Source: Sulfurovum sp. (GTDB lineage: Bacteria > Campylobacterota > Campylobacteria > Campylobacterales > Sulfurovaceae). From it: a DNA stretch of 63,843 nt. Positions within the stretch are counted from its first letter, which is position 1. Every line of letters begins with the position of its first letter. Below are positions 23,051-38,648 of this stretch, in pieces. The stretch spans positions 1 through 63,843 of the forward strand of contig CBFHPE010000001.1 of assembly GCA_965657515.1 (NCBI GenBank), read 5' to 3'. A program made the position numbers and the translations under genes. The notes under the pieces were generated by a model. The model was not told the DNA's origin and searched no databases. It worked only from the letters and a program-made list of their open reading frames with translations.

Positions 23051-24256
23051 ATGGAAAGAAGAGACTTCTTTAAAAAAGCAGCCGTTGTTGCGGGTGCAGC
23101 AGCAGTTGGTACGAACTCAGCAGAAGCTGCTATAACACAACAACCTATTGATAACCGTAAGGTTTCTCCTGTGGCTTTCCCAGAGAAAAGACCACTCATT
23201 ATGTATTCTGACAGACCACCTTTGTTGGAAACACCTAGAGATGTATTTACTTCGGCTCTTACACCTAATGACCAATTTTTTGTACGTTGGCATATGCCGG
23301 ATATCCCAACACACATTGATCCAGATACCTATACTATCCACATCAATGGACTTGTCAAAAAAGAACTTCATATTTCTCTCAATGATCTAAAAACAAAATT
23401 TGAGCAGGTAGAAGTAACAGCTGTACTTCAATGTGGTGGTAACAGCCGTTCTGCATTTAAGCCAATAGCGGGCGGGATCCAGTGGGGTTCTGGTGCAATG
23501 GGTTGTGCTACGTGGAAAGGAGTACGTCTAGGAGATATCCTTGATCAGGCAGGTTTACATAAAGATGCGCGATGGATAGGCTTTAACGGCTCTGAGAAAG
23601 CTGCATACTATGAAACGCCTGAATTCATACGAGAGCTTGAACTAACAGAGCTTGACGACAATGTAATCCTTGCATATGAGATGAACGGTGAAGATCTTCC
23701 ATACCTCAACGGATATCCTCTTAGACTTGTACTTCCCGGATACTACTCTGACTCATGGGTAAAGATGCTTTCAAACATCACAGTAACTAACGAATACAAA
23801 AAACTCTTTTTTATGGATGTTGCTTATCGTGTACCTGACAATGAAACAGAGTCTGAGACCCCTGAGAAAAGATATCCTTCAACAAAACCTATTAAAAAGA
23901 TGAATGTCAAATCAGTGATAGGTTACCCTACCAAAGAGTCTATTATCTCTCATAAGTCACATGTTGTAGTACGTGGTGTAGCATGGGATGATGGCCATGG
24001 AATACAAGATGTCATGGTTTCAACTGATGGTGGAAAAACATGGGACAAGGCCCTACTCGATGATGGTAAACTGGGACGTTATGCCTATAGAGCATTTAGA
24101 TTTGCCTACAAACCTATGACATTTGGTAAAGTGACCATCATGACCAAAGCTATCAGTAAGATCGGTGAAGAACAACCTTTTGCAAAAGATATCAAGTGGA
24201 ATCACGGCGGATACAAATACAATGGTATCGATGAAGTTACTGTGGAGGTAATATAA
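23051..24256 (+). CDS. sorA: Sulfite:cytochrome c oxidoreductase, molybdopterin subunit
   Basis: Tat signal RRDFFK, FFVRWH, LQCGGNSR (Mo-ligating Cys), NGYPLRLVLPG and a dimerisation domain. Confidence 0.88.
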   Translation: MERRDFFKKAAVVAGAAAVGTNSAEAAITQQPIDNRKVSPVAFPEKRPLIMYSDRPPLLETPRDVFTSALTPNDQFFVRWHMPDIPTHIDPDTYTIHINGLVKKELHISLNDLKTKFEQVEVTAVLQCGGNSRSAFKPIAGGIQWGSGAMGCATWKGVRLGDILDQAGLHKDARWIGFNGSEKAAYYETPEFIRELELTELDDNVILAYEMNGEDLPYLNGYPLRLVLPGYYSDSWVKMLSNITVTNEYKKLFFMDVAYRVPDNETESETPEKRYPSTKPIKKMNVKSVIGYPTKESIISHKSHVVVRGVAWDDGHGIQDVMVSTDGGKTWDKALLDDGKLGRYAYRAFRFAYKPMTFGKVTIMTKAISKIGEEQPFAKDIKWNHGGYKYNGIDEVTVEVI

Positions 24257-24564
24257 TGAAGAAACTTATTTTAATTACAGCACTTTTAAGCACAACCCTT
24301 TTTGCACAAACTAAAGAGAATGTTGAAGTACCTTATGTTGCTTTTCCTATCAAAATGGGAAAAGGCTTTGATGCAATCCAGACACATTGTCTAATGTGTC
24401 ACTCTTTTGGCTATATCACTAACCAAGGAAGACAGTCTAAAAAGTTTTGGCATGGAAAAGTAGTGAAAATGGTCGTACACTTTAAAGCACCTATGGATGA
24501 AAAAGCGATACAAGAGACAACTGATTACCTTTTCGAACATTACGGAAACGGTAAACTCCAATAA
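24256..24564 (+). CDS. sorB: Monoheme cytochrome c partner of SorA
   Basis: Signal peptide, CLMCH and W..KV.KM; start overlaps the sorA stop. Confidence 0.82.
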   Translation: MKKLILITALLSTTLFAQTKENVEVPYVAFPIKMGKGFDAIQTHCLMCHSFGYITNQGRQSKKFWHGKVVKMVVHFKAPMDEKAIQETTDYLFEHYGNGKLQ

Positions 24565-26464: not shown

Positions 26465-29400
26465 TTAGATCATATAATTTTCTCCATAATCTTCTGAATA
26501 ACTACATACTTTATTCTTTCCTGACCTTTTTGCTTCATACAGAGCATTATCTGCTTTGTTGATAGCAACTTCTATATCATTATCACTTGCCAGTTCTACC
26601 ATGGAAACACCCACACTAATAGTTACCTGTAATTGCTTATCCTGATCATATGTTATTACCATCCTCTCAACCAGTTCTCGTATATTTTTTGCTATCTTCA
26701 TGCTACTTTCTAAATCTGTATCAGGAAGAAGTATAATATACTCTTCTCCTCCAAAGCGACAGACTATATCACTTTTTCTTGTCTGTTCTAGCAAGATATT
26801 TGCAATACCTATGATCACTTTATCACCAATATGATGACCATAGGTATCATTCACACTTTTAAAATCATCAATATCAAACATCACTAAAGAGAGATCATTA
26901 TTTGTCCTTTTACTGACATTAAATATATCTTCAGATATTTCAGAAAAATATCGTCTATTATAAAGTTTTGTCATTGGATCTATAGAAGCCAAAAGTTTTA
27001 ATTCCTCTTTACTTGCTTCCAAATCTTTCGTGCGTTGTTTGATCTTCTCTTCAAGTCTACTATATACCATAGTATTTTCAATAGAAATAACGATCTGCCC
27101 ACTTAAATGCTGTAAAAACTTTACCTTATCTTCGGTAAACACTGAAGGCAAAAGATTATTTTCCAAATAAATGATCCCTCTAAGTTCACCCTGTAAGATC
27201 AACGGTGCACAAAACACAGACTTTATCAACCTGGATGACACATAAGATGTATCAAAAATATTATTTTCTGTCATATCATCGATCACAATAGATTCTTTTG
27301 TACGTAACACATAATTTATAATAGGGTGTGCGATCGTATCTATCTCCGTATAAGGGGCATCCTGCATGACATCTATAACAGACAGATCTTTATTTGCAGA
27401 AGCTTGAACTACCATACCACCATCTTTTTCCAAGAGTAAAAAGCCATGCTGTGCTCCCGCATTTTCCATAATGATCTCTATCAAGGTCTTAAGAAGACTT
27501 GAAAATTCATATTCTTGAGAAATGACTTCTGAAGCTTTTATTAATGTTTTAACATCAAAATTCAAGTTATCTTCACTACCTGCATGATCTATTTGATCGA
27601 TACCCCATTTATTGAAGTTCCTTAGTGATTCATCTTTATATATCTTTGCAGCTCTTTTCTGACCTAATGTTTCATAGAGTTCTGCAGAAAGTCTATTAGC
27701 AATAGCCACTAAATGTTTCTGTCCATAAATATTAGCAAGATCAATTGCCTTATCATAATACAGAAAAGCCTCTTTATGATTATTGTCTATACGATATATT
27801 TCCGCTTGTAAAATATATGCCCTGACTAAAAAATTTTCAGCACATCCATCTGCCCATTTTAAAAATTTCTTCTTTACTTTTTTTATTCTATTTTTATATC
27901 TTTTTTGTGTTGAAATGTTTTTCACTGAGATCAACTTTGCTAAGATCAAAGCATCATAAAATAAATACTCTGTATGGTGTAACATACCTTTAGATGAGTT
28001 AGAGAATTTTTTTCCCTCTATACTTATCTGATGTGCATCTTCATACGATTGTTGTAGATATAGGGCTATCATTTTATTAACAAAATAGAAATGGGCAAAG
28101 TGTTCTGATTCATACTGATCGAGACTTTTAACATAAGATGATTCATCAAACCCCTCACTGTCATAAGAATGAAGTGTTTTCGTTTGTCCTGACAGGTTCA
28201 GTAGCGTTTGTTTCACACTTAAAAGTGCACCATGCTGCTCTTTAGCCCCTATATTAAGTATGATTTTTTCAAAATATTTAATCTGTGCAAAAACTTCTTC
28301 AAAAGCCACACCTCTCATAAACATACTTTGGACAATAGCCGCTGCAGCACAGCCTGTATGAAACCAATCCCCAATTTCCAAACCATTCTTATAAGCTGTG
28401 TGCCATATCTCTTCCGTCTCTAAAGCTGGCTGTTTCCATGAAGTTGCAAAATAGCCGCAAACAAACTGTACCTCTGCATGTTGCGTTGTATTATCAAATC
28501 TTTTTAGCATATCAGTTGAAAACTGACTGTACGCATATCCTAATGTATGGTTGCCTAAAATTCCCCCTTGGAAAATCACACCAAACACCATAAAAGCGAT
28601 CACAGATTCTTTGGTTAATCCGTTTTCTAAACATAGCTTTACGATGATCACTGCATTTGCTACAGAAAGTTCTGGTTTAACTTGATAGGCAGCTTGTAAG
28701 GTATTTGCCAATATCTTCATTGTCATGATGAAGGTTTCATCATCTGATTCTGGAAGGGCAATAAGATCCTCTGTTGTATAACTACGTAACTTCAACTTTA
28801 AACGTAGAAAATCTGCAATAAATAGAGGAGGAACAAATGTTTTTGGTATCGTAATACCAACACTTTGGGCTGCAATACGTCCTACTTCATAAGCCTTCTT
28901 GAATTGGGAGATATCGGAATAAAGTTTAATGAGTAATTCATATATTTCGCCTTTTTCTAATAGTGTTTCTGCGGATTCAAGTGCTTTTTCATAAAAATAA
29001 ATAGCCTCATTACTGTAGTTGCATAGATGTTCACATTCACCCCTCTGCTTTAACATCAACACCGTATTTTCCACCGAGCCATTTGTAAAACCAAGTTCCA
29101 TGGATTTTTTAATATATTTTAAAGCACTTTCAAAATCACCACTTTTTTTTGCATAGATTGAAGCTTCTAAATTGAGTTTACCAAGAAACTTTTTATCTCT
29201 TACATACAATGCACCTATATTTAAATGATTAACACATTCAAGTAAATGTTGATGATCCAAAGCTTCTCTACTTTGCTCAAGATGACACCCTATTTTATAA
29301 TGGACTTTATGGAGTACCTTTCCCAATAAAAATGAATGTATTGCTTGTTGCATTTTATCATGTAAGAATCTATAACTTTTATCTTCAATTATATGTGTGT

Positions 29401-31081
29401 TATCCGCAACTATCCAACCTGAGGATAATGCCAAAGCCATTGTCTCATCAAATATCTCAGTATCATTGAATACCTTTTCCAATAACGCATGGGAAAAAGA
29501 ATTTCCCATACATGATGCTATACATAACAGGTTCCGTACATTTGGTAGAAGTGAGTCTATATTATCTGACAATACATCAAAGACATTGTCTGAAATTGGC
29601 AAGGAATTGATCTTCCTAAGGTCACATTTCCATTCCAACTCTTCCATATCAAACCATATAGCATCATCTTTATGCAATTGCTTCAAATATTCTTTTACAA
29701 AAAACGGGTTACCTTTTGTTCTAGCAAAAATAACATGTGCCACTTCTGCGGATGTATTTAAATGTATATTATCTTTGATCAATGTCTCAATATCACCTTC
29801 TGAGAGCGGCAAGATCGTCATTTCGTGGACCTTTAGATCAAAAGATGCCAACTCATGTAACATAGAACTGATAAGATGGTTACTAGAAATTTCTACTTCA
29901 TCATTCCTATAGGCCATAAAAAGTATGATGTTTTCTAAGTTGAGTATCACATTCTTGATCCATTGTAAAGTAACTGTATCTGCCCACTGAATATCATCTA
30001 TGTAGATACATAAAGGTAATTCTTCATCATGGAAGGCTCCCATAAATCGTACCAGAAGATTATCCAAACTAGCTTTTGAATCGATATTCTGAACTTCCTC
30101 AATAGTAGTAGTGTGTTCACCTAAAACAATTTCAAGTTCAGGGATTACTTCTGTTAAAACATATGCATGTGTACCCAAGATATTTTGCAATTTATTTCTA
30201 TATTTTTCTAAGGTCTCTTCATCTTGTGCGACCAGTTCTCGTACCATAGTACTAAGTGCTGTATATAGTATCTGATAAGGTGTACTCTGTTCACCTGAAT
30301 CAAGTTTGAACTTACAGATATGAGAAAAATTATTTTTATTTTTATTTATCACTTTATTAATAAGTGATGATTTTCCCATACCTGACTTGCCATGGACCAA
30401 TATGATCCTGTTTTCTTTATTTGTCTTTGAATCAATATGATATTGTAACTTTTGCTCTTCTTCATCCCGACCATATATTACTTTACTTGTATGAAGCTCC
30501 TGTACATTATAAAATATATCTAGCTTGAAGTTAGGTACTTCATTTTTATTCAAGGCGTGCTGTAGTTTAGTGAGATCTATAATGACTGACATAAGGTCTT
30601 TATAACGTTCAAATTGATTGATCGCAACCATTTTTTCTATGATCAAAGATAGCATATGCGGTATATTTTTGTTTTTGTCTGATATAAAAGGTATTTTCTG
30701 TGTTAAAACTGCATGTGTGAACGCAAGGATATCATTGTATTTATAGGGTAATTCACCTACCACAAGTTCATAAAAAATAATCCCTAGAACATAAATGTCT
30801 GAAGACTGGTTAATATACGTTGAATCTCTCAAAACCTGTTCTGGAGACATATAATCTATGGTTACATCTGCATCATCTAATGACGTTACTTTAGTGATCT
30901 TTACTTGATGGTGTGTATTGATAAAAATATTTGAAGGGGTCAGGTTATTGAAAAGTACATTTTGTTTATGAAGTGTATGAACATTCTTACTTATCTCTAT
31001 AGCAATGCTCAAAAAAGTGTCTACATCAAAAGGTTTGTTCTTAACATAATCACTTAATGAATGGTACTTAATACTTGTCAT
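26465..31081 (-). CDS. Multidomain pseudokinase-STAND ATPase-helical repeat-GAF-GGDEF diguanylate cyclase
   Basis: Kinase C-lobe (YMSPEQ, SDIYVLG), GKSGMGKS, IDDIQWAD, GNPFF, FLHDKMQQ, GAF (SVFCAPL..GIIYLEN), RKSD and GGEEY. Confidence 0.88.
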   Translation of the reverse strand: MTSIKYHSLSDYVKNKPFDVDTFLSIAIEISKNVHTLHKQNVLFNNLTPSNIFINTHHQVKITKVTSLDDADVTIDYMSPEQVLRDSTYINQSSDIYVLGIIFYELVVGELPYKYNDILAFTHAVLTQKIPFISDKNKNIPHMLSLIIEKMVAINQFERYKDLMSVIIDLTKLQHALNKNEVPNFKLDIFYNVQELHTSKVIYGRDEEEQKLQYHIDSKTNKENRIILVHGKSGMGKSSLINKVINKNKNNFSHICKFKLDSGEQSTPYQILYTALSTMVRELVAQDEETLEKYRNKLQNILGTHAYVLTEVIPELEIVLGEHTTTIEEVQNIDSKASLDNLLVRFMGAFHDEELPLCIYIDDIQWADTVTLQWIKNVILNLENIILFMAYRNDEVEISSNHLISSMLHELASFDLKVHEMTILPLSEGDIETLIKDNIHLNTSAEVAHVIFARTKGNPFFVKEYLKQLHKDDAIWFDMEELEWKCDLRKINSLPISDNVFDVLSDNIDSLLPNVRNLLCIASCMGNSFSHALLEKVFNDTEIFDETMALALSSGWIVADNTHIIEDKSYRFLHDKMQQAIHSFLLGKVLHKVHYKIGCHLEQSREALDHQHLLECVNHLNIGALYVRDKKFLGKLNLEASIYAKKSGDFESALKYIKKSMELGFTNGSVENTVLMLKQRGECEHLCNYSNEAIYFYEKALESAETLLEKGEIYELLIKLYSDISQFKKAYEVGRIAAQSVGITIPKTFVPPLFIADFLRLKLKLRSYTTEDLIALPESDDETFIMTMKILANTLQAAYQVKPELSVANAVIIVKLCLENGLTKESVIAFMVFGVIFQGGILGNHTLGYAYSQFSTDMLKRFDNTTQHAEVQFVCGYFATSWKQPALETEEIWHTAYKNGLEIGDWFHTGCAAAAIVQSMFMRGVAFEEVFAQIKYFEKIILNIGAKEQHGALLSVKQTLLNLSGQTKTLHSYDSEGFDESSYVKSLDQYESEHFAHFYFVNKMIALYLQQSYEDAHQISIEGKKFSNSSKGMLHHTEYLFYDALILAKLISVKNISTQKRYKNRIKKVKKKFLKWADGCAENFLVRAYILQAEIYRIDNNHKEAFLYYDKAIDLANIYGQKHLVAIANRLSAELYETLGQKRAAKIYKDESLRNFNKWGIDQIDHAGSEDNLNFDVKTLIKASEVISQEYEFSSLLKTLIEIIMENAGAQHGFLLLEKDGGMVVQASANKDLSVIDVMQDAPYTEIDTIAHPIINYVLRTKESIVIDDMTENNIFDTSYVSSRLIKSVFCAPLILQGELRGIIYLENNLLPSVFTEDKVKFLQHLSGQIVISIENTMVYSRLEEKIKQRTKDLEASKEELKLLASIDPMTKLYNRRYFSEISEDIFNVSKRTNNDLSLVMFDIDDFKSVNDTYGHHIGDKVIIGIANILLEQTRKSDIVCRFGGEEYIILLPDTDLESSMKIAKNIRELVERMVITYDQDKQLQVTISVGVSMVELASDNDIEVAINKADNALYEAKRSGKNKVCSYSEDYGENYMI

Positions 31082-31091
31082 ACTCTACTAC

Positions 31092-32480
31092 CTAATGCTT
31101 ATACATATCTCTATGTTCTTTCCATCTTAAGAACATAGCATTTGACTCTTTGGTCTCTTTCATAGTTGCAGCGGTATAGTTCATAAGCACCGCTTCAAAT
31201 AGTGTACTGTAATCAAGCCCTATAGTACCCTTTTTTTGAGCTATATACCCTGGTCTGTTCTGGAACCATTCATTCCACTCTTTTGAACCTGGTGCATACA
31301 TTACCCATGGTTGTCTCTTATACTCTTTAGCCGGATATAAAAATGTTGACATATGCGTAGCACCTGATGTATAACTGGATGTACCATGACAACTCATACA
31401 AGATGAACTTCTGAGTTTTGGCCACTTTTTCCCATTTACTTCTACATTGTATTTTACAGAAATATCAAATGGTCCAGATAAACGACCGCCATATCCCAAT
31501 GTCACCTTTGTCCAATCAGGAGCATTTGAATTAATATAGGTCTCTTTTAAATTTGGGTTCATGGCATTAGGGTCTTGTGGAGACATAACATCAGGGTCAT
31601 TACCCCACATTGCACCTAATGGAACCATTTTATCCCAAATATCACCTGTGGCGTTCTTGTCATAAACAAATGTTGAAAATACCCAACCTGTTTGAGGTGC
31701 AGCTATAGAATCTTTTACGATGATATCTATAAAAACGACTCTTGTGTCTCTCACTTTAAGAGGAGTATCAGGCATCGTACCGCTCAAATTATAATCTCTT
31801 CGATAGACTTTCCATATGGGTGCACCTTCAAGTACAGGCCACTCTTCTGGTGTCGCTGTAATTCCTGATGACTTGATTACAATGGCACCCTCTTTAAACT
31901 GTGTCTCATTATTGTCCACACTAGGAACACACTCTTGTGTCGTTTGATTACAATCTTTCCAAACTTGCTGTAGTGTATACGCTGCTCTTTCATCATATAA
32001 AATCGCTGCATAGTTACGAACATCTTTTGTTAGTCCTGAAGCAGCATAGACATCTTTGCTTTGTATCTGACCTGTAAATGTTCCATAAATGGATTCTCGT
32101 CCTTCCCAACCGACCTTTTCAATGCTTTGTCCAGCCCATAACATACTATACCAGCCTGTTTGATCACTCTTGTTCCATCCTTCAGGATCAGACAAAAACT
32201 TATCTAGTGTTGGTTTGACATGTTTTTTTAATGCCATCATGTAGGTATGTGCATTCTCTTTTGTAATTGGCTTACCACCAAGTACTTTCTGCCACAACAT
32301 ATTTTTAGGGGGAGTGTATGTTTTTGGATAATCATAATTGAACTGAAAAAGTGCTCCATTATACTCAGCATTTGGTGGTATATTTCCATTATTTGCTGCG
32401 AAAGGATCAACAGCTTTTTCTTGCGCAAATACAACACTAACAGCGATACAACATAATAGCAATAATCCCCTCTTGTACAT
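31092..32480 (-). CDS. Secreted single-heme c-type protein with cytochrome P460-like motifs
   Basis: Sec signal peptide, a single CMSCH (aa 361-365), and FKEGAIVIK and IDIIVKDS..TGWVF motifs. The P460 assignment is inference. Confidence 0.6.
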   Translation of the reverse strand: MYKRGLLLLCCIAVSVVFAQEKAVDPFAANNGNIPPNAEYNGALFQFNYDYPKTYTPPKNMLWQKVLGGKPITKENAHTYMMALKKHVKPTLDKFLSDPEGWNKSDQTGWYSMLWAGQSIEKVGWEGRESIYGTFTGQIQSKDVYAASGLTKDVRNYAAILYDERAAYTLQQVWKDCNQTTQECVPSVDNNETQFKEGAIVIKSSGITATPEEWPVLEGAPIWKVYRRDYNLSGTMPDTPLKVRDTRVVFIDIIVKDSIAAPQTGWVFSTFVYDKNATGDIWDKMVPLGAMWGNDPDVMSPQDPNAMNPNLKETYINSNAPDWTKVTLGYGGRLSGPFDISVKYNVEVNGKKWPKLRSSSCMSCHGTSSYTSGATHMSTFLYPAKEYKRQPWVMYAPGSKEWNEWFQNRPGYIAQKKGTIGLDYSTLFEAVLMNYTAATMKETKESNAMFLRWKEHRDMYKH

Positions 32481-36754: not shown

Positions 36755-38608
36755 TTAAGTAAAAATATATTTTTCTTCAAATGCATTTTGATCTAATGCT
36801 TCATCAAAATAAAACCCTTGAAATCTGTCACAAGTCTGTTCTTGTAAGAAATCTAATTGTGCTTTTGTTTCAACACCTTCTGCCACAACAGTCAGATCAA
36901 AATTCTTTGCTATAGATATGATAGTAGAGATCATGTGTTGATCATTTTTACTCTTGTCTAAATGTTTTATAAATACCTTATCGATCTTCAATTCATCAAT
37001 AGGCAATTCTCTTAAATAACTTAAAGAAGAGTATCCTGTTCCAAAGTCATCGATCGAAAATGATATTCCCATTGCTTTTAGTCTATGCATTGTATTGATC
37101 GTTTTTTTCATATCTTCTGAAAATACATGCTCTGTCATCTCAAAATAGATATTTTGAAGGTTACTATCATTAAAAGCATACTTCTCCATCAATCTTTGCA
37201 CATCTTCTAAAAAAGGTTCATACATGATCTGTCGCATACTGATATTGATTGAAAAGTTCTCTAATACAATCCCCCCTTTATTCCAATCATCTAACACTTT
37301 AAATGTGTGATGAAGCACATAACTACCTAACTCCAGTATCAGTCCGGTGTTTTCAGCAATAGGGATAAATTCATTTGGATGTACGATACCCAAGTCTTTA
37401 TCGGTCCATCGTACCAAAGCTTCAGCACCGATCAGTTTATCATCTGTATTGAACTGCGGCTGATAGTATACATCTATGGCATTTTCATTCAATGCTTTAT
37501 ACAATTTTTGTTCTATCTGTATATGTCTTGCCACCTGTTCTTCAATATCCTTATTAAACACAATAACACCGTCTCTTCCCTGTGTTTTTGCTTCATACAT
37601 TGCAAGATCTGCTTCTTTTAAAAATTTATTTGGATTTGAAAGTGTATTTGCCACAGTGCTAATACCTATACTGGCACTCAAATATAAATGATGATTGTTG
37701 ATAATATAGGGTTTTTTAAGTTCAAGAATTAAATTTTCAGCAAATTCTTGTATCTGTTCGATATATGATTCTTCTGTAACAAGCTCTTTAGTAACAACAA
37801 TAAATTCATCTCCACCAAGTCTTGCAACCAAACGCGAGTATTTACAATAAATACTAATACGTCTAGCTACTTCTTTCAAAACATCATCTCCCACATCATG
37901 TCCTAAAGAATCATTGATTGTTTTGAAATAATCCAGGTCTATCAAAAGTATATAAGCTTTTTTACGGGTAAATGAGATTCTTTCAAGCATGGCATCCATA
38001 TAGTCAGTATAATATCGTCTGTTATGCAAACCTGTTAAAGCATCATGTTGTGCATGATAATAGTTTTTTTCAATAAGCCTATGAGTATTGTAGGAAGAGT
38101 AGATCAATACTCCTAAAAAAATAGTGGAAAAGAATGATAATACATAACCATACCATGTTCCGATCAATCCAAAATATACGATTAGCGGTACCATTAAGAT
38201 CAGTAATATAGGTACAAATATCTTTCGCTCAGATACCAAAAGTGCTGAGGCTACTACCGATGCACCCAATTGTGTGAAAATAGCAATATAGTGTAAATTA
38301 CTCTCCACTTCCTGCGCATAAAGTACAAAGATAACAGTCCATAAAGAAAAAATGACATACATGAAAACAATGAGTTGACCATGCCACTTTTGCAGTTCTT
38401 CATATTCCATTTGTACAGTGTCAAACCATTTATAAAGAAACATACCATAAGCAGAAGTAAGTAACATGGCTATATACCAAAGCATTGCTGGTATAAAAAC
38501 GTTATAGAGATATCCAAAAACAACATATACAATGCCAGGTATAAGAGAGAGAAACACTAACAGAATTATCTGCTTTTGTAAAAATATATAATGTTTTTGC
38601 TGTTTCAC
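36755..38608 (-). CDS. Membrane GGDEF-EAL diguanylate cyclase/phosphodiesterase
   Basis: N-terminal TM segments, HDALTGL, GGDEF, EALVRW and DDFGTGYSSL. GTG at 38608 follows GAGGA; the ORF track starts at 38635. Confidence 0.92.
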   Translation of the reverse strand: MKQQKHYIFLQKQIILLVFLSLIPGIVYVVFGYLYNVFIPAMLWYIAMLLTSAYGMFLYKWFDTVQMEYEELQKWHGQLIVFMYVIFSLWTVIFVLYAQEVESNLHYIAIFTQLGASVVASALLVSERKIFVPILLILMVPLIVYFGLIGTWYGYVLSFFSTIFLGVLIYSSYNTHRLIEKNYYHAQHDALTGLHNRRYYTDYMDAMLERISFTRKKAYILLIDLDYFKTINDSLGHDVGDDVLKEVARRISIYCKYSRLVARLGGDEFIVVTKELVTEESYIEQIQEFAENLILELKKPYIINNHHLYLSASIGISTVANTLSNPNKFLKEADLAMYEAKTQGRDGVIVFNKDIEEQVARHIQIEQKLYKALNENAIDVYYQPQFNTDDKLIGAEALVRWTDKDLGIVHPNEFIPIAENTGLILELGSYVLHHTFKVLDDWNKGGIVLENFSINISMRQIMYEPFLEDVQRLMEKYAFNDSNLQNIYFEMTEHVFSEDMKKTINTMHRLKAMGISFSIDDFGTGYSSLSYLRELPIDELKIDKVFIKHLDKSKNDQHMISTIISIAKNFDLTVVAEGVETKAQLDFLQEQTCDRFQGFYFDEALDQNAFEEKYIFT

Positions 38609-38648
38609 TTTATCCTCTTTACATAGAAACTCCAACTAAGATTTAAAT

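What the first reader, a model, noticed from the sequence alone, without database searches (positions are those of the whole stretch)
26465..32480. Candidate new signalling system: secreted P460-like heme protein paired with a giant STAND-GAF diguanylate cyclase
Seen: two co-oriented genes 10 bp apart, between housekeeping-type genes. One is an exported single-CxxCH protein with P460-like motifs; the other is a 1538-aa soluble pseudokinase/P-loop/helical-repeat/GAF/GGDEF protein. Established: the P460/c'-beta family binds or converts hydroxylamine and NO, and STAND NTPases are ligand-gated oligomerisation switches. Inference: a periplasmic heme enzyme produces or removes a diffusible N-oxide or peroxide-type signal that is read by the cytoplasmic cyclase, linking reactive nitrogen to c-di-GMP. 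There is no TM link between them, so the coupling is hypothetical. I know of no described system with this pairing.
Basis: partly seen in the sequence, partly recalled or inferred. Interest (0 to 1): 0.75.

Follow-up and report, generated by a model that had tools for sequence, protein, structure and literature searches.

The report
Giant P460 paired with STAND receptors
A predicted exported, three-times-enlarged cytochrome P460-type heme protein sits next to an NLR-like (STAND) signalling gene in two bacterial phyla and has kept that company through a swap to a different receptor family; it likely turns hydroxylamine into a nitric-oxide-type cue that the receptor would read to make c-di-GMP.

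Summary
Both genes are real: 462 aa and 1538 aa, minus strand, 10 bp apart. The 462-aa protein models as an enlarged P460/c'-beta fold. It keeps residues matching the P460 cross-link lysine (K203) and distal base (D252); all 225 aligned homologues have an acid at 252 or, in 8, at 205 instead. The pairing is conserved. One clade of this heme family lies next to a STAND gene in 47 of 48 tree rows: 25 of 25 beside a pseudokinase-STAND-TPR-GAF protein with GGDEF or histidine-kinase output, and 22 of 23 beside an adenylate/guanylate-cyclase-STAND-TPR protein from a separate subfamily, in Paracoccus followed by a Crp/Fnr gene. None of 34 sister rows has either partner. Gene order flips, and only STAND plus TPR is common to both partners, so GAF is not the shared input. 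The window's TPR region carries about twelve subfamily-specific His/Cys residues. The link is asymmetric: the STAND gene has lost the heme gene several times, which favours a diffusible cue over obligate contact. Ligand, direction of effect and co-transcription are untested. Ten literature searches found no description of the pairing.

The parts
31092..32480 (-). Enlarged cytochrome P460-type heme c protein, 462 aa
   Evidence: ORF; 995 homologue clusters; model pLDDT 92; top 5 of 48,161 chains are all P460/c'-beta, Z 6.0-7.0, next 3.7
32424..32480 (-). Predicted Sec signal peptide, residues 1-19
   Evidence: Hydropathy peak 2.0; 102 of 112 homologues with the N-terminal motif have a hydrophobic stretch before it; the cleavage site is inferred from the sequence
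31872..31874 (-). K203, equivalent of the heme cross-linking Lys78 of M. capsulatus P460
   Evidence: Profile alignment bridged through; numbering from Table 2 of PMC11928373; K in 222 of 224 homologues
31725..31727 (-). D252, equivalent of the distal base Asp102 of M. capsulatus P460
   Evidence: 217 of 225 rows have an acid here and the other 8 have Glu at 205
31386..31400 (-). CxxCH heme c attachment motif (CMSCH, 361-365)
   Evidence: C361, C364 and H365 invariant in 120 sequences
31082..31091 (-). 10-nt intergenic spacer
   Evidence: no terminator-like site reported between the genes (consensus scan only)
26465..31081 (-). Pseudokinase-STAND-TPR-GAF-GGDEF protein, 1538 aa
30602..31066 (-). 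Truncated pseudokinase, residues 6-160
   Evidence: Pfam match starts at model position 82; catalytic-loop Asp missing in 25 of 26 close orthologues, present in 4 of 4 distant relatives
29948..30478 (-). STAND (AAA_16) NTPase core with Walker A 231-238 and Walker B 358-363
   Evidence: G231, G236, K237, D363, G457 and N458 invariant in 30 rows
27587..29359 (-). TPR superhelical sensor region (575-1165) with subfamily-specific C683, H685, C687, C817, H845, H908, C911, H994, H997, H1035 and C1080
   Evidence: model pLDDT 92.6; Foldseek matches are TPR proteins
27080..27499 (-). GAF domain, residues 1195-1334
26510..26989 (-). GGDEF domain with GGEEY 1444-1448 and I-site RKSD 1435-1438

Best explanation
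The two genes are a conserved pair in which a predicted exported P460-type heme enzyme likely oxidises hydroxylamine or a related N-hydroxy compound, and the membrane-permeant NO-type product would be read by the His/Cys-rich TPR region of the cytoplasmic STAND protein, which would then oligomerise and switch c-di-GMP synthesis. Shown here: adjacency, its conservation and survival through order flips and a partner swap, the fold match, and the conserved Lys, acid and His/Cys residues. Following from known families: heme c attachment needs export; P460s with this Lys and a distal carboxylate oxidise NH2OH and release NO under air; GGDEF and class III cyclases work as dimers (recalled). Inferred: the substrate, the messenger, the sensing site and the sign of the output. 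On this reading the heme protein widens the input of a receptor that can also respond to ambient N-oxides by itself, which would explain lone STAND copies.
For: Linkage: 47 of 48 rows in one heme clade (SH-aLRT 97) and 0 of 34 sister rows. In the metagenome sample, 32 of 35 and 6 of 7, with the four misses on contigs too short on one side, against 0 of 38 unlinked-clade loci. The two partner types fall in separate STAND subfamilies, each nearer to unpartnered relatives than to the other. Order is heme-first in 6 and STAND-first in 17 of 23 loci. In 201 rhizobial-family genomes the cyclase-type sensor and the linked heme gene occur in the same 2 genomes, adjacent. Active site: K203 in 222 of 224; exactly one acid at 252 or 205 in 225 of 225. 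P460 releases NO aerobically (PMC10411619, passages). No membrane segment links the two, and two extra Cys (177, 184) in 25 of 25 rows of the window's subclade suggest a periplasmic disulfide. His/Cys residues are 21-26 of 26 conserved in the close clade and essentially absent from 4 distant relatives. Six of the 25 window-type rows are Methylococcaceae, methanotrophs that make NH2OH (PMC11928373 section 4), and the own genome has NrfA.
Against: No ligand or activity was measured. The fold match is only Z 6-7 and covers about 135 of 462 residues; the extra 300 residues may serve a larger substrate. The residue mapping rests on a weak profile alignment (probability 65, P 6e-5), and a direct comparison of the full profiles found only the CxxCH. 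The capping residue could not be mapped. The two partner types share no sensor motif: the cyclase type has conserved His but no conserved Cys, so one common ligand is assumed. The STAND persists without the heme gene in 5 of 9 close copies in the order sample, 3 of 9 in Methylococcaceae, and G443; G007 keeps only a relic. No other N-oxide gene is a regular neighbour. P460 makes only N2O anaerobically. Loci are related, so counts overstate independence.
Confidence: 0.4

Rival explanations
1. Sensor plus scavenger. Both proteins deal with the same reactive nitrogen stress, but the heme protein removes NH2OH or NO (to N2O) and so dampens or resets the receptor instead of feeding it.
For: Detoxification is the proposed role of P460 in methanotrophs (PMC11928373 section 4). 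Lone STAND copies keep all His/Cys residues. One lone copy has a truncated globin directly upstream (L118) and one lineage has a cytochrome c'-beta 4.8 kb away (L251-L253). In three Paracoccus plasmids a Crp/Fnr gene follows, which could close a feedback loop.
Against: The globin and c'-beta cases are single lineages. Only weak CRP-like boxes (7 of 10 matches, no chance control) lie upstream in Paracoccus. A pure scavenger would not need to stay within about 200 bp of the receptor through order flips.
Confidence: 0.22
2. Different chemistry. The enlarged pocket acts on peroxide or on a larger organic substrate, and a dedicated small product enters the cell and binds in the TPR groove, as maltotriose does in MalT (recalled).
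For: The linked clade has its own invariant residues, Q138, N156 and Y382 (48 of 48, 0 of 34 in sister rows) and R227 (47 of 48). The cyclase-type sensor has a tightly conserved aromatic and polar set absent from paralogues. Unlinked relatives sit beside GMC oxidases, KatG, LodA or a BBE-type oxidase in 4 loci. P460 cross-link formation is peroxide-driven.
Against: No transporter or biosynthetic gene travels with the pair. Clade-specific residues may only reflect descent. Oxidase neighbours occur in 4 of 34 unlinked loci.
Confidence: 0.2
3. Direct contact. The STAND TPR region binds the heme protein itself (as unexported precursor or processed piece) or through an unlinked membrane adaptor, as H-NOX binds its kinase or cyclase.
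For: TPR superhelices often bind proteins (one search matches). Pairwise identities of the two partners co-vary (Spearman 0.62, 0 of 999 permutations; 0.25, 22 of 999), though co-inheritance alone gives this.
Against: Signal peptide, c-type heme and a likely disulfide place the heme protein outside the cytoplasm. No fusion of the two was found among proteins of 897-2560 aa (weak evidence). The sensor stays fully conserved in lone copies. One heme clade pairs with two unrelated sensor surfaces.
Confidence: 0.1
4. No functional tie, or a defence cassette: the genes travel together as mobile cargo.
For: Patchy spread (heme gene in 5 of 116 genus genomes and 4 of 401 order genomes), plasmid copies, broken copies (L007, L019, L022, L025, G007, G523), and many STANDs are antiviral (10.64898/2026.01.04.697583, passages).
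Against: Two separate STAND subfamilies were recruited, order flips, and flanking genes change from locus to locus. PADLOC gives no hit for the heme protein and only generic kinase, cyclase or P-loop hits for the partners. Outputs are c-di-GMP, phosphorelay and cNMP/Crp, not toxins.
Confidence: 0.08

Closest known systems
Cytochrome P460 of Methylococcus capsulatus (6hiu) and Nitrosomonas spp.
   Same: Beta-sheet fold (Z 6.0-6.9), C-terminal CxxCH, Lys and acidic residue at the cross-link and distal-base positions, export signal.
   Different: About 440 mature residues against about 145; below the Pfam cut-off; capping residue not mapped; the review parts I read mention no link to signalling genes.
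Cytochrome c'-beta
   Same: Same fold; the top Z score (7.0) is the Thermus protein.
   Different: c'-beta lacks the Lys and the distal carboxylate (Table 2); this family keeps both.
SWACOS-type STAND NTPases and cyanobacterial HstK/Pkn41 dual kinases
   Same: Kinase or cyclase plus AAA_16 core plus TPR; GAF before the output domain; L003 has the histidine-kinase output.
   Different: Kinase dead and truncated, GGDEF output, His/Cys-rich sensor, and a conserved heme-protein neighbour. The passages read on HstK/Pkn41 report nitrogen and iron regulation, not a ligand (PMC2176072). The SWACOS definition is recalled.
H-NOX and NosP signalling with diguanylate cyclases and histidine kinases
   Same: A stand-alone heme protein encoded beside a cyclase or kinase, tying NO to c-di-GMP (PMC8738867, passages).
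   Different: Those bind their partner directly and are cytoplasmic b-heme sensors (location and heme type recalled). Here the heme protein is an exported c-type P460 with catalytic residues and the partner is a STAND protein.
Heme c Cache (DUF3365/Tll0287) NO sensors
   Same: Extracytoplasmic c-heme used for NO sensing (PMC12889525, abstract).
   Different: Cache fold, fused to signal-transduction modules; no STAND partner in the abstract.

Membership tests
Cytochrome P460 | P460/c'-beta beta-sheet fold | tested here: met
   Top 5 of 48,161 chains, Z 6.0-7.0, rmsd 3.1-4.9, 125-145 aligned, next Z 3.7; all Foldseek hits under E 0.05 are this family, none under 0.001. Z is under 8, so support is moderate.
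Cytochrome P460 | Single C-terminal CxxCH | tested here: met
Cytochrome P460 | Lys at the cross-link position | tested here: met
   K203 aligns with the Lys that maps to Lys78 of 6hiu; 222 of 224 homologues. Sequence level only.
Cytochrome P460 | Covalent heme-lysine cross-link | not testable with these tools
   Needs spectra, mass spectrometry or a structure
Cytochrome P460 (active) | Distal carboxylate | tested here: met
   D252 maps to Asp102; acid at 252 or 205 in 225 of 225 rows
Cytochrome P460 | Distal capping residue (Phe or Arg) | tested here: inconclusive
   By register Arg50 falls near N156-A158, with no Arg or Phe conserved; no coordinates were available
Cytochrome P460 | Homodimer (recalled) | not tested
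   No complex prediction was obtained
Cytochrome P460 | Hydroxylamine oxidation | not testable with these tools
   Needs an assay
Classical small P460 (Pfam PF16694) | Score over the 27-bit cut-off, about 150 residues | tested here: not met
   16 bits, 462 aa. Two distant homologues pass (33.2 and 28.8 bits), and one is annotated as P460 family. Filed as a new large branch of the superfamily, not a classical member.
Cytochrome c'-beta | No cross-link Lys, no distal carboxylate | tested here: not met
   K203 and D252 are present
STAND NTPase, SWACOS type | AAA_16 core with Walker A, Walker B and GxP motif | tested here: met
   motif names recalled
STAND NTPase, SWACOS type | N-terminal kinase or cyclase and C-terminal superhelical repeats | tested here: met
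   no reference SWACOS sequences were placed in my tree
STAND NTPase | Ligand-gated oligomerisation | not testable with these tools
   Needs biochemistry
HstK-type dual kinase | Active Ser/Thr kinase and C-terminal histidine kinase | tested here: not met
   Catalytic Asp and DFG absent, GGDEF output
Diguanylate cyclase | GG(D/E)E(F/Y) site and upstream catalytic residues | tested here: met
   GGEEY 1444-1448, D1403, N1411, D1420, I-site RxxD; TIGR00254 178 bits
H-NOX / NosP systems | HNOB or FIST domain, non-covalent heme, no export | tested here: not met
   No such Pfam hit at E 0.1; CxxCH and signal peptide present
Antiviral STAND (Avs) and other defence systems | Match to a defence model and a toxic effector | tested here: inconclusive
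   Only generic kinase, cyclase or P-loop matches in PADLOC; no phage test

The most novel reading that the evidence does not exclude
A new class of bacterial signalling: an exported P460 enzyme makes NO from hydroxylamine, and an NLR-like STAND receptor senses it through a metal or thiol site in its TPR superhelix, with c-di-GMP, phosphorelay or cNMP/Crp as exchangeable outputs. This would give cytochrome P460 a signalling role and the large kinase/cyclase-STAND class a chemical ligand.
Probability: 0.35. Interest if true: 0.88.

Novelty: new variant of a known kind. Interest (0 to 1): 0.72.

Why it matters
Kinase- and cyclase-fused STAND proteins are common in bacteria, and I found no reported ligand for them in the papers searched; the physiological role of P460-fold proteins outside nitrifiers is also open. 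A two-gene pair with a predicted enzyme, a conserved sensor pocket and an easily measured output makes both questions testable in cultured strains. It also defines a large, mostly unannotated branch of the P460 superfamily (995 clusters at 90% identity) that may add to NO and N2O turnover in sulfur oxidisers, methanotrophs and rhizobia.

Tried and rejected
Sequence search of solved structures found nothing for the heme protein and only CxxCH-level matches for its profile. Profile comparison of the full alignments aligned only the CxxCH; a small P460 profile gave no significant match to single sequences. No fusion of heme and STAND parts was found (weak). No phage copy. No RNA run was listed, which is no evidence on expression. 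Promoter-like sites were no more frequent than in shuffles (31 against 38.8). A complex prediction of the heme protein with the TPR region was not available, so direct binding and dimer state remain open. Earlier scan findings: nothing shown. No HAO, NirS or Hcp match in the own genome (86% complete, and the HAO control rang nowhere). Rejected: GAF as the common sensor (absent from the cyclase-type partner); obligate pairing (lone STAND copies); an active kinase. My first ORF filter hid three cyclase partners behind antisense frames (L027, L056, L079); one search corrected this, and the group labels printed predate it. The cNMP-binding neighbour count (11 of 34 cyclase-type loci, 0 of 23 window-type, 2 of 34 unlinked) includes six seed loci, five of them cyclase-type, so only 6 are independent hits. 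Whether His/Cys residues cluster in space could not be checked, because model coordinates are not returned.
Full report
Observation. The two ORFs are as described: 462 aa at 32480-31092 and 1538 aa at 31081-26465, minus strand, 10 nt apart. A Sulfurovum record carries the same gene order with 91% and 81% identity (L001), so the window is probably from that genus. GC content over the pair is 33-35% against 35-39% nearby. Each gene is single-copy in the assembly.

The heme protein. It has no family hit over cut-off but 995 homologue clusters and 866 representatives at 50% identity, nearly all unnamed. The model from 120 sequences has pLDDT 92. Against 48,161 representative chains the five best are all P460 or c'-beta (Z 6.0-7.0), then 3.7 (searches agree). 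This is a moderate score over about 135 residues. The Atlas returns unnamed clusters, one with 12% P460 annotation (run on homologue P0050). I mapped the active site in steps. A classical P460 from a relative (L136) aligns to M. capsulatus P460; counting in that alignment places Lys78 and Asp102, which Table 2 of PMC11928373 names as cross-link and distal base. A core profile of the new family aligns those two motifs to K203 and D252 (probability 65, P 6e-5). K203 is kept in 145 of 146 near and 77 of 78 far homologues (proteins under 330 aa left out). Of 225 rows, 217 have an acid at 252 and 8 have Glu at 205 instead; none has both or neither. The swap may be one event, but it suggests that an acid beside the Lys is required and that the two positions are neighbours. 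The family therefore looks like an active P460, not a c'-beta.

The STAND protein. The kinase is dead in the close clade (25 of 26 lack the catalytic Asp; 4 of 4 distant relatives keep it), while Walker A, Walker B and the GGDEF site are intact. Residues 575-1165 model as a TPR superhelix. Residues 801-850 form the most conserved block (0.72), with 851-950 at 0.66 and the post-GAF linker at 0.71. About twelve His/Cys positions between 683 and 1080 are kept in 21-26 of 26 close sequences and replaced in the 4 distant ones, except for 2 Cys at 1080 and 1 at 683 (the window has Ser at 806). A metal or thiol site there is an inference.

Linkage. I examined the best 80 of 353 genome matches. A tree of 82 heme proteins plus 10 distant ones gives one clade of 48 rows (SH-aLRT 97, quick search). 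Its first half, 25 rows including the window and G450, all lie beside the pseudokinase-STAND-GAF gene, with GGDEF or hybrid histidine-kinase output. Its second half, 23 rows, has an adenylate/guanylate-cyclase-STAND-TPR gene directly downstream in 22; L075 lacks it and L065 is cut at the contig end. None of the 34 sister rows has either partner, although L036, L069 and L077 have some other STAND gene within 1-4 kb. The best 80 of 375 metagenome matches repeat this: 32 of 35, 6 of 7 and 0 of 38. I counted L187 (gap about 530 bp) as paired and L218 (kinase domain only) as unpaired; many of these loci are near-duplicates or overlap the genome set. A tree of 65 STAND cores puts the two partner types in separate subfamilies, each closer to unpartnered relatives. 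The genomes with cyclase-type pairs hold 2-9 such STAND genes, and the heme gene was beside only the partner copy in each of 5 (1.5-kb flanks). Three Paracoccus plasmids carry heme gene, cyclase-STAND and Crp/Fnr gene in one run, in different surroundings.

The reverse test is weaker, and this matters. In 401 genomes of the order, 4 have the heme gene and 9 a close STAND (40% identity or more); all 4 are among the 9, and 5 STAND copies are alone (in G422 the contig ends about 400 bp upstream). In 116 genomes of the genus, 5 have each and 4 have both; G443 has the STAND directly after the helicase, G007 keeps only the last 88 codons of the heme gene, and in G030 the contig ends inside the heme gene. 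In 151 Methylococcaceae genomes the counts are 6 and 9, the 6 inside the 9. In 201 rhizobial-family genomes they are 2 and 2, plus 2 distant heme genes without partner. Lone copies nest among partnered ones and keep the His/Cys set, so the heme gene was lost several times while the sensor stayed intact.

Mechanism. The partners sit on opposite sides of the inner membrane and no membrane protein travels with them, so a diffusible link is the simplest. P460 oxidises NH2OH and, under air, releases NO (PMC10411619). I put the relay from NH2OH to NO to STAND at 0.4, a scavenger of the same cue at 0.22, another substrate or peroxide at 0.2, direct contact at 0.1 and no tie or defence at 0.08. That the pair is functionally tied is much better supported (about 0.9) than any one chemistry.

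Literature. Ten searches found no paper describing this family or pairing; the library lacks most subscription journals. Read: PMC11928373 (abstract, passages, first part of section 4); passages of PMC10411619, PMC2176072, PMC8738867, PMC13236601 and 10.64898/2026.01.04.697583; abstract of PMC12889525. The rest were seen as listings only. No supplements were read; the bioRxiv STAND survey's tables could list these clades. The SWACOS definition, the MalT ligand and the location of H-NOX are recalled.

Verdict. A real, conserved and apparently undescribed two-gene signalling module. It resembles H-NOX/NosP operons in logic but is built from an exported P460-type protein and an NLR-like receptor. 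Interest 0.72.

Noticed in passing
P0193, P0194, P0243: Distant members of the large P460-like family are fused to secreted-type nucleases (S1/P1 and endonuclease I) or to bacterial SH3 domains; the fusions were not checked for assembly errors.
   Followed up: no
L254:8944-14087, L255:8911-14046, L256:7914-12953: Paracoccus plasmids carry heme gene, cyclase-STAND and Crp/Fnr gene in one run; these heme proteins have the Glu205 variant in place of Asp252.
   Followed up: partly
L044, L055, L059, L064, L058: Unlinked family members lie beside H2O2-related genes: GMC oxidases, catalase-peroxidase, a BBE-type oxidase, LodA, and a ferritin-like gene one step away.
   Followed up: partly
L003, L006, L007 downstream of the pair: The histidine-kinase version is followed by nitrogenase accessory genes (FeMo-co binding protein, CowN, NifU-like) and in L003 and L006 preceded by a second hybrid kinase.
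   Followed up: no
L041, L042, L046, L047, L050, L054, L071: Betaproteobacterial cyclase-type loci carry cNMP-binding proteins, including a SulP-STAS-cNMP transporter and a cNMP-gated channel.
   Followed up: partly
L118:10396-10836; L251:16893-17372: A truncated globin lies directly upstream of one lone STAND, and a cytochrome c'-beta 4.8 kb from another lineage of lone STANDs.
   Followed up: partly
L133:4948-5211; L022; L007; L019; L025; L253: Broken copies: a relic of the heme gene in G007, a split heme gene in L022, and split STAND genes in four loci; some may be assembly errors.
   Followed up: no
window 23051-24564: A Tat-type molybdenum oxidoreductase ORF followed by a small single-CxxCH cytochrome, like a SorAB sulfite dehydrogenase (label recalled); a similar pair lies beside a classical P460 in L137.
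   Followed up: no
window 36755-38635: A membrane-anchored GGDEF-EAL gene lies 4.3 kb from the pair; the assembly has 16 proteins with a GGDEF-like motif.
   Followed up: no
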